Shown: positions 8,010-42,306 of the stretch, one piece after another
Numbering within the stretch: position 1 is the stretch's first letter
How the letters are laid out: each line of letters begins with the position of its first letter
Assembly: GCF_009914755.1 (NCBI RefSeq)
Contig: NC_060937.1
Source of the DNA: the human T2T-CHM13v2.0 reference genome, Homo sapiens
Length of the DNA stretch: 64,000 bases
Direction: 5' to 3' (one strand)
The notes under the pieces: generated by a model
The model's database searches: none
Seen by the model: the letters and a program-made list of their open reading frames with translations, nothing else
Told to the model about the DNA's origin: nothing
Program-made: the position numbers and the translations under genes

Positions 8010-8723
<714 letters not shown>

Positions 8724-9200
8724 AACTTTTTTTCCTTCATTTCAACTTTGGTGAAACTGACAATTATGTGTCTTGGAGTTGCTCTTCTCGAGGAGTATCT
8801 TTGTGGCGTTCTCTGTATTTTCTGAATTTGAATGTTGGCCTGCCTTGCTTGATTGGGGAAGTTCTCCTGGATAATATCCTGCAGAGTGTTTTCCAACTTG
8901 GTTCCATTCTCCCCGTCACTTTCAGGTACACCAATCAGACGTAGATTTGGTCTTTTCACATAGTCCCATATTTCTTGGAGGCTTTGTTTGTTTCTTTTTA
9001 TTCTTTTTTCTCTAAACTTCTCTTCTCGCTTCATTTCATTCATTTGATCTTCCATCACTGATACCCTTTCTTCCAGTTGATTGAATTGGCTCCTGAGGCT
9101 TGTGCATTCGTCACGTAGTTCTCGTGCCGTGGTTTTCAGCTCCATCAGGTCTTTTAAGGACTTCTCTGCATTGGTTATTTTAGTTAGCCATTCATCTAAT
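8724..9200 (-). mobile_element. L1PA ORF1 fragment (inverted relative to the adjacent 3' segment)
   Basis: Translates to ORF1p: DEWLTKITNAEKSL...SLQEIWDYVKRPNLRLIG...KVEMKEK. Confidence 0.95.
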
Positions 9201-9206
9201 TGTGAT

Positions 9207-9922
9207 CGGTGTGCTGCACCCACTGTCCTGCACCCACTGTCCGACACTCCCCAGTGAGATGAACAGGTGCTGGAGAGGATGTGGAGAAATAGGAACACTT
9301 TTACACAGTTAATGGGACTGTAAACTAGTTCAACCATTGTGGAAGTCAGTGTGGCGATTCCTCAGGGATCTAGAACTAGAAATACCATCTGACCCAGCCA
9401 TCCCATTACTGGGTATATGCCCAAAGGATTATAAAACATGCTGCTATGAAGGCACATGCACACGTATGTTTATCGCGGCACTATTCACAATAGCAAAGAT
9501 TTGGAACCAAGCCAAATGTCCAACAACCATAGACTGGATTAAGAAAATGTGGCACATATACACCATGGAATACTATGCAGCCATAAAAAATGATGAGTTC
9601 ATGTCCTTTGTAGGGACATGGATGAAGCTGGAAACCATCATTCTCAGCAAACTATCACAAGGACAAAAAAAACCAAATACCACATGTTCTCACTCCTAGG
9701 TGGGAATTGAACAATGAGAACACATGGACACAGGAAGGGGAACATCACACACTGGGGCCTGTTGTGGGGTGGGGGAAGGGGGGAGGGATAGCATTAGGAG
9801 AAATACCTAATGTAAATGACGAGTTAATGGGTGCAGCACACCTTCATGGCACGTGTATACATGTGTAACAAACTTGCATGTTGTGCACATGTACCCTAAA
9901 ACTTAAAGTATAATTAAAAAAA
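9207..9922 (+). mobile_element. L1PA4/5-like element: inverted 5'UTR piece plus ORF2 end, 3'UTR and short A tail
   Basis: ORF2 C-terminus ([14 protein letters not shown]...), G-rich 3'UTR; no TSD seen. Confidence 0.93.
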
Positions 9923-24941: not shown

Positions 24942-26342
<1,401 letters not shown>

Positions 26343-27251
26343 AAGAAAGAACAAGGAGAAAAAGTTTCTTTTTCAAAGAATTTTTGACTGTCATAAAATG
26401 TAAAATAGGTATATGTATTAAGGATATTTTAGAAAACTACATTAAAACTTACTTTTAAAAATAGAGCACATTATCTTAAGCAGATTACAGCTATTTTCTT
26501 CATATCTGAATTTAAAAACAAGTTTTTGAATCTATAACTCAAGGTGTTATCATTTACAAATATTTTGAATCTCAATATAAACTTTAAAACACTTTAGAAA
26601 ACTATAATTTTTTATAAGCGATAACTACACTTAGAAAATATAATAACTTTTTAATATGCAAGTTACATTAAAATATACTTATATAATCAGCATTTGGTTC
26701 TGGCTTATCTCCAGCCGAGTATAGTGTGTACTCCCCACAATCTGTAGGTTTCACCATTTTCACTGTAGCTTTGTTTCTGAGTCATGGACCAAAGCTGATT
26801 ATGTTACAGGATAAGCTGTTTGAAGTGTTAGCCACATTAAGCCATGCTAAGCCACAATAAAACTATTACTGTTAGACATAATAAGATTATTAATATCAGG
26901 TTTTATATCAGCTCCACTTACTGAATTTTAGCACATAGAAAGGTAAGGAGAAAATGGATTTTAAATATTTTTTGATGCTGTTTGAAATTATTTAATCCTA
27001 CAAATGAATATTTTAAAACCATATCTTCCTATTTGTTTTTGTTTCTAAGTATTTGACTCAATGGAACCATGAAAAGGAGGAGCACGTTTATCTTGAAAGG
27101 GACAAGTTAACATTTGATTTATTGACATTTTGCCTTTCAGTGAGAAAAAATATGTTAGTCTATAGTGAGTAATACTCTTAAGAGTTACATGATGTTATAA
27201 CTTTAATTTAGTCACAGAATACGAATAATTTATAGAAAGTGAACAAAATAT

Positions 27252-31101: not shown

Positions 31102-31256
31102 CCATGCTTGTGGAAGTGAAGTGGCCTCTCATTACAGTAAAACACCTACTTTTAAATGGACTGATAAAATGATAGAATAATAGGGCTGGACAAGTTATCT
31201 ATTCACAGGTAGTATGTGTAGTATTCCATTATGTAAATATACCACAATTTATTTTT

Positions 31257-31982
31257 ATTTTTATTTTTTACTATACTTTAAGTTTTAGGGTACATGTGCA
31301 CAACATGCAGGTTTGTTACATATGTATACATGTGCCATGTTGGTTTGCTGCACCCATTAACTCTTCATTTAACATTAGGTATATCTCCTAATGCTATCCC
31401 TCCCCACTACCCCCACCCCACAACAGGCCCCGGTGCGTGATGTGATGTTCCCCTTCCTGTGTCCATGTGTTCTCATTGTTCAATTCCCACCTAGGAGTGA
31501 GAATATGCGGTGTTTGCTTTTTTGTCTTGCAACAGTTTGCTGAGAATGATGGTTTCCAGCTTCATCCATGTCCCTACAAAGGACATGAACTCATCATTTT
31601 TTATGGCTGCATAGTATTCCATGGTGTATATGTGCCACATTTTCTTAATCCAGTTTACAATTGTTGGACATTTGGGTGGGTTCCAAGTCTTTGCTATTGT
31701 GAATAGTGCTGCAATAAACATACATGTGCATGTGTCTTTATAGCAGCATGTTTTATAATCCTTTGGGTATATACCTAGTAATGGGATGGCTGGGTCAAAT
31801 GGTATTTATAGTTCTAGATCCCTGAGGAATCACCACAATGACTTCCACAATGGTTTAACTAGTCTACAGTCCCACTAACAGTGTAAAAGTGTTCCTATTT
31901 CTCCACATCCTCTCCAGCACCTGTTCATCTCACTGGGGAGTGTCGGACAGTGGGTGCAGGACAGTGGGTGCAGTGCACCGAT
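31257..31982 (-). mobile_element. L1PA4/5-like 5'-inverted insertion
   Basis: 3' segment 31257-31925, inverted 5'UTR piece 31923-31980, 14-bp TSD cacaatttattttt (31243-31256 / 31983-31996). Confidence 0.95.
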
Positions 31983-32589
31983 CACAATTTATTTTTCCAT
32001 TCTCCTTTCTAGGGATATTTGTGATGTTTCTATTTAGGGGTTTTTGTCAATAAAGCTACTGTAAGAATTCATATACAAGCTTTACAACTTTTTTAAGGCA
32101 TATTTTTTTCATTTTTCTTGAGTAAACACCTAGGTGGAGAATTGTTTGGACATACAGCAGGTATATGCTAACTTTTTAGGAAACTCTCAAACTGTTTTTC
32201 CAAAGCAGTTGCACTATTTTATAATCTCCCCAGCAGTGCATGATCTTAACAGTTGTTTCATGTCCTTAGCAACATTTGGTATTAATATTCATTGAAACTT
32301 TCATCATTCTAGGGGTAAAAAGGTGTGAATAGTATCTCATTGTGGTTTTGATTCACGTTTCCTTGGTGTTAAGGGTGTTATACATCTTTTCACGTGTTTA
32401 TTGGTCATACTATGTCTTCTTTTGTTAAGTTCTGTTCAAATCTTTAGCCCATTTTTAAAAAAATGACTGTATGACTTTATTATAGGCTGATAGGATTTCT
32501 TTCTTTACGCATCCTGGATACAAGTCCTTTGTGCACATACATGTGTTGCAAATATTTTTACTTTTGTGATTCTGTCTTTTCATTTTCTT

Positions 32590-40234: not shown

Positions 40235-42306
40235 CTACTGCTGGCAAGATGAAGTAGATATACTACAGTTACCTATTCTTCCTGATAAGTAGAACTAAAA
40301 GCTCTGGACATTTTATACAAAACAAACATTAGAAGCTCATGAAAGTTGGAGAGAAGAAGGCAAACGGTTTAGGGAACCTCAAGACCCAAGTAATGTCCTG
40401 GGTTTTCTTTTTTCCTCATATATCCCAGAGAGGATTCTGGAGAAGACAGCAATCTGGAAATGCCAAGAAATACAGACAAAAAGCCCTAAGAAAAATTTGT
40501 TCTATCTAGCCAAAAGATAAGGAAAATAGCAGCTTAGTGAGACAGAAAACTTGTAGGCAGTAACTGTTTTACTAAAGTCAAACACTACAGAAAAAACTAT
40601 GGCCCCTCCAACACTCATGCCAGCAAGGGCTGGGTGGAAAGCCTAAATTTCTACCATTGCAAGGCTGTAATGAAGTGCCTAATCCCTCTGCTGGTGCACT
40701 CTCAGGGAAAGCTAACTAAGGAGCCAGGAGTTTTAACTGTGGAGCCAGGAGTTTTAATCCTCTCTAAGCAGCAAGAAACCATACACTGTGGTGTCGCTGG
40801 AGCCCATCTGAGGATCCTGGACTTCTCCGCCCATCAAGGTGTAATATTCCTCTCCTCCCTGATGTAACATCAAAGGAGCTCTGGTAGAGAGTCAGGACTT
40901 TCACCAGGACTCAGTAGTAACCAGGCTATGTCCTCGCAGTGTCACTGGAGGCCACGTTAGGAGTAGTAGCAAGGATTCCTTTTCCCTCCAACCCAGAATG
41001 ATATTTGCAGAGGCCTACAGACTAGTCTTTCCCCCTTCCATGGGAAACAATGGAGTCAGTGGAGACTGGTAGGAGAATCTAGACCCCAATGGCCACCTGG
41101 AAATAGTGAAGATCTAGAATCTTAAAGCATAATACCCAACATGTCCACATTTCAATAAAAAATGGCTCATAACACCAAAAAATAAGATCTCAAACTGAGC
41201 AAGAAATCACAATCAACATGCACCACACGAACATAACACAGAAGTTAAAATTATCTGACAAGCATTTTAAAGCCTCTGTCATAAAAATGCTTCAATAAAC
41301 AATTACAAACATGCCTGGAAAAAATGTAAAAAATAGAAAGTCTGAGCAAAGGAATATAAGATATAAGAAAGACTCAAATGGCAATTTAAGAACTAAAAGG
41401 TACAATAACCAAAGTGAAGAGTTCAGTGGAATTCAAGAGTGGATGGGAGAACAGATAAACTAATCAGTTAACTGAAAAATAGAAAGCTAAAGTTACTCAA
41501 TCTGAACAAAGGGGAGAAAATAGATTGAAAATAGAAATAAATAGAACTTCAGGGGCTTATGAAACTATAACAAAAGATGTCATATCTTTCGTTATGGAAG
41601 GAGAGGAGAAAGAAGGCACAGATTTTTTAAAAAAGTATTCAAGTAACTGATGGCTGAAAAATCCTAAATTTGGCAAAAGATACAAAACTACAGAATTGAG
41701 AAGCTGAGAGAACTCCAAAAAGGATATATGCAAAGAAATCCATGCAAAAGCATGTCATAGTAAAACTTCTGAAAACAGAAGAATGTTTTTTCCCCAATCT
41801 CGCTCACTCTGCAGACAGAAAATCTTGAAGACACCAAGAAAGAAATACCTTACATATATAGGAAAACCAATTTGAATTACAGCAGATTTTGCACTAGAAA
41901 TCACAGAGACCAAAATGAAGTGGCATAACATTTTTCAACTGTGGAAAGAACTGTCAACCCAGAATTCTATATCCAGCAAAAATAGCCTTTAGGAATGAAG
42001 GAGAAATCAAGACATTCTCACATGAAAAAAATAAAAGAATGTGTTACCAGCAGACCTACCCTAAAAGAATGATTTTAGAAGTTGTATATAAAAAAGGAAA
42101 TGATATAAGAAGAAATCATAGAATGTCAGGAAGAAAGAACATAATAAAGCAAAACTATGAGTAAATAGACAGATAAAGAGGTCATAGCTAAAAAGTACAA
42201 AATTCTTTGTGAGGTGATGAAAATTTCTAAATTTAACTTTGGTGAAGGTTGCACATATATGACTATATAAGAAGTCTCTGAAGTATATGCCTTAAATGGT
42301 AAATTG
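40235..42306 (+). mobile_element. Old L1M (L1MC-type) 5'UTR/ORF1 plus a 3'-end piece that resumes at about 47581
   Basis: ORF1-like motifs (cccagaattctatatccagcaaaa); 3'-end motif split by the younger L1PA. Confidence 0.65.

What the first reader, a model, noticed from the sequence alone, without database searches (positions are those of the whole stretch)
9198..9922. Identical chimeric L1 junction, including a piece of another locus's target site, copied 22 kb away in inverted orientation
Seen: 9198 onward reads aattgtgat-cggtgtgctgcacccactgtcctgcacccactgtccgacactccccagtgagatg-aacaggtgctggagagg. This is the reverse complement of 31989 downward, with the same two breakpoints. The aattgtg is part of the TSD/host sequence of the 31-kb insertion (cacaatttattttt), not L1PA sequence. 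It joins the ORF1 fragment through a 3-nt aat microhomology. The copies have diverged independently: one ancestral CpG reads TG in one copy and CA in the other. Established: inversion breakpoints are specific to a single TPRT event, so two independent insertions should not share them. Inference: the 9-kb locus was repaired by copying from the 31-kb element (one-ended strand invasion running past the homology, closed by microhomology), or both arose in one coupled retrotransposition event. Either way it is a fossil germline templated L1 duplication.
Basis: partly seen in the sequence, partly recalled or inferred. Interest (0 to 1): 0.8.

Follow-up and report, generated by a model that had tools for sequence, protein, structure and literature searches.

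The report
Copied L1 junction between neighbouring insertions
Two old L1 retrotransposon fragments lying 22 kb apart in opposite orientation share a rearrangement junction found nowhere else in the genome, most likely because one insertion was finished by copying from its neighbour; this kind of event is known and has no evident function.

Summary
Window 9198-9922 (+) matches the reverse complement of 31989-31257. Both copies have the same 59-nt antisense L1 5'UTR piece joined to the same ORF2 position, with the same non-L1 bases in front. Both junctions occur only at these two loci in the 3.1-Gb assembly, even with 3 mismatches allowed. The 31-kb copy has a perfect 14-nt target-site duplication ending in AATTGTG. 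The 9-kb copy has no duplication and carries an extra antisense ORF1 arm. Only (T)GTGA is strictly non-L1 at 9 kb, because AAT(T) is also ORF1 sequence and so is microhomology.

The two 3' bodies differ by 6.5% and are not each other's closest relatives, so the copying happened at about the time of insertion. Junction logic favours the direction 31 kb to 9 kb. The 22-kb proximity favours a DNA template: the new cDNA, or a broken end, pairs with the neighbouring copy, runs past the homology and is closed by microhomology. An RNA template, the reverse direction and a coupled event are not excluded.

Published precedents exist (NCLI34 of Sen 2007, and templated chimeric L1 insertions), so this is a new member of a known kind.

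In passing: all three L1 3' ends in the window share a variant present in only 0.41% of copies genome-wide.

The parts
8723..9201 (-). Arm A: antisense L1 ORF1 fragment at the 9-kb locus, the inverted 5' arm
   Evidence: It is 96-97% identical to ORF1 of other genomic L1 copies over query positions 4-482. Read on the minus strand it gives an open 159-aa frame that matches Pfam Transposase_22 (E 7.4e-46) and Tnp_22_trimer (E 1.1e-25). It has 10 substitution departures in 479 nt from the majority of 29 comparators.
9198..9201 (.). AAT(T) microhomology shared by the end of arm A and the 31-kb copy's target-site duplication
   Evidence: Antisense ORF1 reads AAT here in 25 of 27 other copies and AATT in 13 of 27. 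The same letters are part of the 31-kb duplication.
9202..9205 (.). GTGA: the only bases at the 9-kb locus that cannot be assigned to L1. They are identical to the last 3 nt of the 31-kb duplication plus its one extra nucleotide.
   Evidence: The 18 other antisense 5'UTR copies shown read differently at this position (most ...CA(C/T)GC before TCGGTG).
9206..9264 (-). Piece C: 59-nt antisense L1 5'UTR fragment at the 9-kb locus
   Evidence: It matches many genomic L1 5' regions at 95-100%. In 24 of 29 intact comparators its homologue lies 1058-1082 nt 5' of arm A's homologue on the same strand; 5 of 29 gave no hit.
9262..9264 (.). AAC overlap (microhomology) at the inversion junction between piece C and the forward L1 body
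   Evidence: Other 5'UTR copies read ...GAGATGAAC and then continue differently. The ordinary 25-kb copy and the copy 98 kb to the left of the window read ...AACAGGTGCTGG in ORF2.
9265..9922 (+). Body D9: forward L1 ORF2 C-terminus, 3'UTR and a 7-nt A run, with no flanking duplication
   Evidence: It is 94-95% identical to many L1 3' ends. It has 24 departures in 648 nt from the panel majority. No target-site duplication rises above background: best local score 7.0, and 401 of 500 shuffles score at least as well.
31983..31996 (-). 5' copy of the 14-nt target-site duplication at the 31-kb locus. It reads AAAAATAAATTGTG on the minus strand, and its last 7 nt are shared with the 9-kb locus.
31982..31982 (-). 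One extra nucleotide (A on the minus strand) between the duplication and piece C; also present at 9205
31923..31981 (+). Piece C at the 31-kb locus. The L1 5'UTR sense strand lies on the + strand, so the piece is inverted relative to the element body.
   Evidence: Identical to 9206-9264 except at one CpG, positions 9212-9213.
31257..31925 (-). Body D31: forward L1 ORF2 C-terminus, 3'UTR and A-rich tail of the 31-kb insertion
   Evidence: It has 25 departures in 648 nt from the panel majority. It differs from D9 at 42 of 648 sites.
31243..31256 (-). 3' copy of the 14-nt target-site duplication at the 31-kb locus
24985..26342 (+). Third L1 3' end in the window: an ordinary 5'-truncated insertion with its own duplication AAGAAAGAACA (24974-24984 and 26343-26353). 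It shares the rare 9696-C state with the other two copies.
   Evidence: it is locus L035.

Best explanation
The 31-kb element came first. It is a classical endonuclease-type L1 insertion with a 14-nt duplication, an A-rich tail and an unusual twin-priming product. In that product 59 nt of antisense 5'UTR are joined through an AAC overlap to the last ~660 nt of L1, skipping about 5.3 kb.

Soon afterwards a second L1 insertion formed 22 kb away in the opposite orientation. One DNA end at that site had been extended on L1 RNA into the antisense ORF1 arm (8723-9201). The other end carried the poly(A)-primed L1 3' cDNA, or, in a later repair variant, was a broken end inside an existing L1 3' body. 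This second end paired with the nearly identical 3' body of the 31-kb copy. It was then extended on that DNA past the end of the homology, through the foreign 5'UTR piece and 4-8 nt into the 31-kb copy's duplication. It was released and joined to the ORF1 arm through the AAT(T) microhomology.

The result is a second copy of a junction that is otherwise unique. It is a mutational fossil about 20 million years old, and nothing suggests a function.

Shown: the anatomy, the genome-wide uniqueness, the duplication at one locus and its absence at the other, the microhomologies, and the equal age of the copies. Inferred: the direction of copying, that the template was DNA, and whether copying happened during integration or in a later break repair.
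For: 1. Common descent. The two junctions are identical and occur only at these two loci in the assembly, with 3 mismatches allowed.

2. Direction. AATTGTG is host sequence at the 31-kb locus, because it is also present in the 3' copy of a perfect 14-nt duplication. At the 9-kb locus GTGA has no other source. Copying from 31 kb to 9 kb needs only a 3-4-nt microhomology at the first AT-rich bases beyond the element. Microhomologies of 2-5 bp are the commonest class at the 5' junctions of 5'-inverted L1 (about 70%; Kojima 2010, section read). The reverse direction needs a chance 7-nt match between a target site and the exact rearrangement joint. It also needs a '5' switching' event, seen in only 20 of 1703 inverted insertions (bioRxiv 10.1101/2024.08.27.596794, passages).

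3. The recipient locus looks like a repair product. No duplication rises above background there (401 of 500 shuffles score at least as well), and it has three L1 pieces.

4. A local template. The copies lie 22 kb apart in a 3.1-Gb genome, which free RNA would not explain.

5. The homology stops inside the A tails on one side and after AATTGTGA on the other, and the flanks have no other copy in the window. This is therefore not a segmental duplication.

6. Early timing. D9 and D31 differ at 42 of 648 sites. Both sit about 3.7-3.9% from the panel majority and share only 3 departures.

7. Precedents. Sen 2007 describe NCLI34, an inverted/truncated non-classical L1 insertion followed by intrachromosomal gene conversion of its middle segment. 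The tumour long-read preprint reports 22 templated insertions and cites the model that a growing cDNA leaves the RNA and pairs with nearby homologous DNA.

8. All 3 L1 3' ends in the window carry a state found in 38 of 9297 copies genome-wide. This points to local relatedness among these copies, either by exchange or by a shared source.
Against: No outgroup or pre-insertion allele could be examined, so neither the order of the two insertions nor the state of the 9-kb target is observed.

Nothing in the sequence separates a DNA template from an RNA template.

D9 and D31 are not closer to each other than to unrelated copies: 29 of 29 panel copies are closer to D9, and 27 of 29 are closer to D31. 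That panel was chosen as the best matches to D9, so it is biased towards little-diverged copies. As a result the extent of the copied tract inside the 3' body is unknown, and no mosaic breakpoint is detectable (best split chi-square 2.1).

The first 109 nt have fewer differences than the rest (2 of 109 against 42 of 606, one-sided Fisher p = 0.024), but the split was chosen after looking at the data.

The templated insertions in the tumour preprint are described as typically under 250 bp and very close to the insertion site, whereas this donor is 22 kb away.

In the inverted arm, arm A and piece C lie in descending L1 order. That is what a single twin-priming event with 5' switching at the 9-kb locus would give, and it would favour the reverse direction.

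The 31-kb 5' junction has one extra nucleotide and no clear microhomology, which Kojima 2010 reports as rare for 5'-inverted L1 (only 4.6% lack microhomology).
Confidence: 0.5

Rival explanations
1. RNA template, direction 31 kb to 9 kb. The 31-kb element lies in sense orientation in a CCDC122 intron. A transcript containing it, ending in its A-rich tail, served as the template for the poly(A)-primed cDNA at the 9-kb site, either directly or after the reverse transcriptase switched from L1 RNA. The other DNA end was extended on L1 mRNA to give the ORF1 arm. The two cDNAs then joined at AAT(T).
For: The shared segment ends in an A tail at both loci, as retrotransposed copies do. The 31-kb element is in the sense orientation of CCDC122 (hub annotation together). 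Twin-priming-like events in which the two ends use different mRNA templates are described in bioRxiv 10.1101/2024.12.14.628481 (passage). L1 chimeras with other RNAs are catalogued by Law and Burns (abstract seen).
Against: A free RNA would insert anywhere in the genome, so landing 22 kb from its source is about a 1 in 100,000 coincidence unless the nascent transcript is used locally, which is speculative. There is no duplication at the 9-kb locus. The copy stops only 4-8 nt beyond the element boundary, with no reason for an intronic RNA to end there.
Confidence: 0.18
2. Reverse direction, 9 kb to 31 kb. The 9-kb composite is the primary event: twin priming with 5' switching gave ORF1 arm, GTGA filler, 5'UTR piece and 3' body in one step. 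The 31-kb element is then a 5'-truncated copy of it, made from its RNA or DNA and attached through a 7-nt microhomology AATTGTG.
For: Arm A and piece C are both inverted and lie in descending L1 order. [quoted passage not shown] Only one atypical event with a large gap is then needed instead of two.
Against: It requires the last 7 nt of an independent 14-nt target-site duplication to match, by chance, the very bases that span the rearrangement joint at 9198-9204. 5' switching is rare (20 of 1703). An RNA route again has the 22-kb coincidence.
Confidence: 0.08
3. One coupled, synchronous event. Two or three L1 integrations from the same RNA pool took place at the same time in this 22-kb stretch, and their intermediates exchanged strands.
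For: The copies are of equal age within the resolution available. All 3 L1 3' ends in the window share a state found in only 38 of 9297 copies genome-wide. Separate L1 'bridges' that share the same inversion breakpoint, made in one event or in synchronous events, are described in tumours.
Against: The 31-kb and 25-kb copies each have their own ordinary direct duplication. No heteroduplication or flank rearrangement is seen. For GTGA to be copied, the 31-kb junction with its flank must already have existed as DNA. Dating resolves only to about 1-3 million years.
Confidence: 0.1
4. Both loci are independent retrotranspositions of a short rearranged RNA from a third source locus that is absent from this assembly.
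For: This would explain why both copies begin at the same place: it would be the 5' end of the RNA.
Against: No third locus exists in the assembly, even with 3 mismatches allowed. It needs AATT to precede GTGA by chance at both loci, and it needs two offspring to land 22 kb apart.
Confidence: 0.04

Closest known systems
NCLI34 of Sen et al. 2007 (Nucleic Acids Res 35:3741; PMC1920257; passages seen)
   Same: It is an L1 insertion without a target-site duplication, made of three consecutive L1 pieces, with an inverted/truncated structure. One piece best matches another locus on the same chromosome. The authors explain it by an initial inverted insertion followed by intrachromosomal gene conversion.
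   Different: Here the transferred piece carries a unique inversion junction plus 4-8 nt of the donor's target-site duplication, so the donor locus is identified unambiguously. The event is about 20 million years old, not human-specific. The 9-kb copy keeps a short A tail.
Templated (chimeric) L1 insertions and the strand-annealing-like model of Gilbert et al. 2005. That model is known here only as cited in bioRxiv 10.1101/2024.08.27.596794 (passages); the original paper was not read.
   Same: The growing L1 cDNA leaves its RNA, pairs with homologous genomic DNA, copies it and is then joined back, which duplicates a genomic segment inside the insertion.
   Different: The preprint describes templates that are typically under 250 bp and very close to the insertion site, in tumours. 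Here the donor is 22 kb away, is itself a rearranged L1, and the event is germline and ancient.
Twin priming (Ostertag and Kazazian 2001; known here as cited)
   Same: Both loci have an inverted 5' arm next to a forward 3' body, with 3-nt microhomology at the inversion joint. The 31-kb copy also has a duplication and an A-rich tail.
   Different: Internal deletions at twin-priming joints are typically short (median 14.5 bp). Here about 5.3 kb is skipped at the 31-kb copy, estimated. Two loci sharing the same joint cannot come from two independent twin-priming events.
L1 bridges that share an inversion breakpoint in L1-mediated reciprocal inversions and translocations (bioRxiv 10.1101/2024.08.27.596794; passages)
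   Same: Two separate L1 pieces on one chromosome, in opposite orientation, carry the same inversion breakpoint.
   Different: Those bridges are flanked by heteroduplications and accompany a rearrangement. Here the 31-kb copy has its own direct 14-nt duplication and no flank is duplicated or exchanged.

Membership tests
Twin-primed (5'-inverted) L1 insertion: the 31-kb locus | Direct target-site duplication flanking the whole insert | tested here: met
   Perfect 14-nt repeat at 31243-31256 and 31983-31996.
Twin-primed (5'-inverted) L1 insertion: the 31-kb locus | Forward 3' body ending in an A-rich tail, with an inverted L1 segment next to the 5' duplication | tested here: met
Twin-primed (5'-inverted) L1 insertion: the 31-kb locus | Inverted and forward segments adjoin in L1 coordinates, with only a short deletion or duplication at the joint | tested here: not met
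   Piece C lies about 1.07 kb 5' of arm A in 24 of 29 intact copies. Arm A's homologue ends about 3.76 kb before the start of body D in the long neighbouring copy. About 5.3 kb is therefore skipped, whereas the published median is 14.5 bp.
Templated / strand-annealing-like chimeric L1 insertion: the 9-kb locus | Part of the insert is identical to another genomic locus, including sequence that L1 RNA cannot supply | tested here: met
   GTGA and two genome-unique junctions are shared with the 31-kb locus.
Templated / strand-annealing-like chimeric L1 insertion: the 9-kb locus | Homology between the invading L1 cDNA and the donor, and microhomology at the closing joint | tested here: met
   The donor carries a ~660-nt L1 3' body of the same type. 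There is an AAT(T) overlap with ORF1.
Templated / strand-annealing-like chimeric L1 insertion: the 9-kb locus | The template was DNA rather than RNA | not testable with these tools
   Only the 22-kb proximity argues for DNA. The sequence itself is the same under either route.
Non-classical (endonuclease-independent) L1 insertion: the 9-kb locus | No target-site duplication | tested here: met
   Best flank alignment scores 7.0, and 401 of 500 shuffles score at least as well.
Non-classical (endonuclease-independent) L1 insertion: the 9-kb locus | Deletion of target DNA and lack of an endonuclease site, judged against the pre-insertion allele | not testable with these tools
   No primate outgroup genome is held.
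Retrocopy of a locus transcript (5' transduction or trans-mobilised copy) | The copy is flanked by its own duplication and lies at an unlinked site | tested here: not met
   The 9-kb locus has no duplication and lies 22 kb from the source on the same chromosome.
Segmental (inverted) duplication | Homology continues into unique flanks on both sides | tested here: not met
   The match ends in the A tails and after AATTGTGA. Flanks of 100 nt (left of the 9-kb composite) and 200 nt (the other three sides) have only chance matches of up to 21 nt (exact runs 15 nt or shorter) elsewhere in the window.
L1-mediated reciprocal inversion with two bridges | Heteroduplications: each target duplication is split between the two bridges | tested here: not met
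   Both copies of the 14-nt duplication flank the 31-kb element itself, and there are no cross-matches between flanks.

The most novel reading that the evidence does not exclude
The three L1 3' ends within 22 kb (9, 25 and 31 kb), possibly with a fourth 98 kb to the left, could be a germline fossil of a clustered, synchronous burst of L1 integrations from one RNA pool. In this reading the intermediates exchanged strands, producing both the duplicated junction and the shared rare 9696-C state. That would be the germline, evolutionary counterpart of the 'synchronous L1 insertion' events so far described only in tumours.
Probability: 0.1. Interest if true: 0.65.

Novelty: new member of a known kind. 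Interest (0 to 1): 0.3.

Why it matters
This is a clean natural example of one L1 insertion picking up sequence from a neighbouring L1. The donor can be named with certainty, because the copied piece contains a unique rearrangement joint and a few bases of the donor's target site. Such fossils show that exchange between L1 integration or repair intermediates and resident L1 copies, known from cell culture and tumours, also happened in the primate germline.

It is also a caution for annotation: a shared truncation or inversion point does not always mean a shared RNA source.

No gene function appears to be affected. Both copies lie in CCDC122 introns or in the 3' region of its alternative transcripts.

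Tried and rejected
1. Propagated subfamily. Rejected: both junction patterns hit only the two window loci with up to 3 mismatches allowed.

2. Segmental or inverted duplication. Rejected: there is no flank homology.

3. Reciprocal inversion with L1 bridges. Rejected: the duplication at 31 kb is direct and there are no heteroduplications.

4. The long L1 98 kb to the left of the window (C13:42929600-42936600) as the local source. Rejected: it is only 92-93% identical to body D9 and arm A, it gave no hit to the 5'UTR piece, and its 5' region is rearranged.

5. A mosaic breakpoint inside the 3' body. None found. The lower divergence of the first 109 nt is only nominal (p = 0.024, split chosen after looking).

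6. A different age for arm A and body D9. The difference is not significant: 10 of 479 against 24 of 648, p = 0.16.

7. Whether 9696-C marks a dispersed small lineage. This could not be tested. The other 30 copies carrying C were therefore not examined.

8. My recollection that Kojima 2010 catalogued L1 pairs sharing junctions was wrong. The paper concerns duplications and microhomologies (outline; sections 8, 12 and 13).

10. Print searches. A full-text search for CCDC122 with LINE-1 and inversion found 0 papers. A search for neighbouring L1/Alu gene conversion found 1 paper, on an unrelated subject.

Full report
**1. What is there**

On the + strand the 9-kb locus reads, from left to right:
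- Arm A, 8723-9201: antisense L1 ORF1.
- Four bases GTGA, 9202-9205.
- Piece C, 9206-9264: a 59-nt antisense fragment of the L1 5'UTR.
- Body D9, 9265-9922: the forward end of ORF2, the 3'UTR and a 7-nt A run.

Arm A, read on the minus strand, is an open 159-aa frame that matches the L1 ORF1p domains in Pfam (Transposase_22, E 7.4e-46; Tnp_22_trimer, E 1.1e-25). It is 96-97% identical to ORF1 of other genomic copies. Piece C matches many L1 5' regions. In 24 of 29 intact comparators its homologue lies 1058-1082 nt upstream of arm A's homologue on the same strand; 5 of 29 gave no hit.

The 31-kb locus, read on the minus strand, has:
- a 14-nt duplication AAAAATAAATTGTG,
- one extra A,
- the same piece C,
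- the same forward body D31 with an A-rich tail,
- the second copy of the same 14 nt.

**2. Check of the observation**

The inverted match runs from 9198/31989 to about 9920/31264, at 94% over the first 472 nt without gaps and 92-95% over the rest.

Both junctions are identical in the two copies. Patterns across each junction, allowing 3 mismatches, occur only at these two places in the 3.1-Gb assembly, with none for the reversed controls. In a 101-nt DNA search, 40 of 1387 candidates were scored. The 38 other scored hits stop at window 9262-9264, the end of the 5'UTR-derived piece.

The 18 other 5'UTR copies shown continue upstream as ordinary 5'UTR, not as AATTGTGA.

The single difference in the first 67 nt is TG against CA at 9212-9213, the footprint of one CpG decaying separately in each copy.

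One refinement applies. Antisense ORF1 itself reads AAT in 25 of 27 other copies and AATT in 13 of 27. Those letters are an overlap, and only (T)GTGA is strictly foreign at the 9-kb locus.

**3. What the two 3' bodies say**

D9 and D31 differ at 42 of 648 aligned sites (6.5%). That is no less than either differs from unrelated copies: 29 of 29 panel copies are closer to D9, and 27 of 29 are closer to D31. Neither copy appears among the 40 best genome matches of the other, while the ordinary 25-kb copy does appear. The panel consists of the best matches to D9 and is therefore biased towards little-diverged copies.

Against the panel majority, D9 departs at 24 of 648 sites and D31 at 25 of 648. 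They share only three departures (9311, 9696, and 9879 at a CpG).

The differences are spread evenly (best split chi-square 2.1). The first 109 nt hold only 2 differences, which is nominal at best (p = 0.024, split chosen after looking).

So the copying took place when the donor was still almost unmutated, that is, at about the time of the insertions. With a rate of about 0.17% per million years (recalled from the L1 dating literature, not checked here), 3.7-3.9% corresponds to roughly 20-25 million years.

**4. Direction**

At 31 kb, AATTGTG is host DNA, because it is repeated after the A tail. GTGA at 9 kb has no other source.

Copying from 31 kb to 9 kb needs only a 3-4-nt overlap at the first AT-rich bases beyond the element. 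Overlaps of 2-5 bp are the commonest class at the 5' junctions of 5'-inverted L1 (about 70%; Kojima 2010).

The reverse direction has one point in its favour. [quoted passage not shown] But that pattern is rare (20 of 1703 inverted insertions). It would also require the last 7 nt of an unrelated target duplication to match the exact rearrangement joint.

I therefore favour 31 kb to 9 kb, while noting that no outgroup genome was available to test it.

**5. Template**

The homology ends inside the A tails and after AATTGTGA. The flanks have no second copy in the window. The 31-kb copy has its own direct duplication. This excludes a segmental duplication and an L1-bridged inversion.

What remains is copying of the 31-kb locus as DNA or as RNA.
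- For DNA: the two copies are 22 kb apart in a 3.1-Gb genome; the recipient has no duplication (401 of 500 shuffles score at least as well) and three L1 pieces; and published cases fit. These are NCLI34, explained by intrachromosomal gene conversion, and 22 templated insertions with the model that a growing cDNA pairs with homologous DNA.
- For RNA: the shared segment ends in an A tail; the donor lies in sense orientation in a CCDC122 intron (hub annotation); and twin priming on two different mRNAs has been described.

The sequence alone cannot decide between them.

**6. An oddity of both loci**

In ordinary twin priming the inverted and forward pieces adjoin, with a median internal deletion of 14.5 bp. 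Here piece C and body D are about 5.3 kb apart in L1 coordinates. That estimate adds 1.07 kb, 0.48 kb for arm A, and 3.76 kb. At the 9-kb locus this gap follows naturally if the forward cDNA left its RNA for the neighbouring copy. At the 31-kb locus it is unexplained.

**7. A side observation that bears on the mechanism**

The A-to-C state at 9696 occurs in 38 of 9297 exact 35-mer matches genome-wide (0.41%). That is about the level expected from background mutation at a single site. Yet all 3 L1 3' ends in the window carry it, and so does a long L1 98 kb to the left.

For 38 random places, 0.06 pairs are expected within 130 kb. Three independent copies all carrying the state has a probability of about 1e-4, even after allowing for all sites and states.

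The 25-kb and 31-kb copies each have their own duplication, so they are separate insertions. Beyond 9696 the chr13 copies share little: 1-2 further rare states per pair among the three window copies. In contrast, two control pairs on chr2 and chr5 share 11 and 7 departures, six and five of them (beyond 9696-C) seen in no more than 2 of the 28 panel copies, and are plainly late duplicates.

Either these neighbours exchanged short tracts early on, or they came from one rare source.

**8. Verdict**

This is a real and well-observed fossil of one L1 insertion copying from its neighbour. The mechanism class is known, so it is a new member of a known kind and of modest interest. Templated duplication is supported. 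DNA strand invasion is the best but unproven reading. A coupled event is possible but not needed.

Noticed in passing
window 9696, 26118 and 31494 (the C inside the matches at 9689-9712, 26111-26134 and 31478-31501); also G000:C13:42930054-42930088: All three L1 3' ends in the window, plus a long L1 98 kb to the left, carry an A-to-C state found in only 38 of 9297 exact 35-mer matches genome-wide. Otherwise they share almost nothing. This points either to early short-tract gene conversion among neighbours or to a shared rare source.
   Followed up: partly
G000:C2:72422640 and 72483686; G000:C5:44051175 and 44062023 (loci L086-L089): Two other close pairs of copies carrying 9696-C lie 61 kb and 11 kb apart, each in opposite orientation. 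They share 11 and 7 departures, six and five of them (beyond 9696-C) seen in no more than 2 of the 28 panel copies, so they are late duplicates of one another. Further pairs on C7 and C14 (40 and 50 kb apart) were listed but not examined.
   Followed up: partly
G000:C13:42929600-42936600 (loci L085 and L090): The long L1 98 kb to the left of the window has an internal repeat of about 98 nt in ORF1. It also lacks about 730 nt of 5' region relative to intact comparators, and an older inverted L1 fragment lies upstream of it.
   Followed up: partly
window 9902: According to the hub annotation, alternative CCDC122 transcripts (minus strand) end at 9902. That position lies inside the antisense 3' end of the 9-kb L1 copy, just before its A run, so the L1 tail region may supply their 3' end.
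   Followed up: no
window 24974-26353: This is an ordinary 5'-truncated L1 with an 11-nt duplication AAGAAAGAACA at both ends. A third chance copy of that 11-mer lies at 42131.
   Followed up: yes
locus L063 (G000:C4:146483368-146486848): One unrelated L1 copy reads AATTG in antisense ORF1 at the position of the 9-kb joint, through a single T-to-G change. This shows how easily a base or two of apparent 'foreign' sequence can arise at that site.
   Followed up: no
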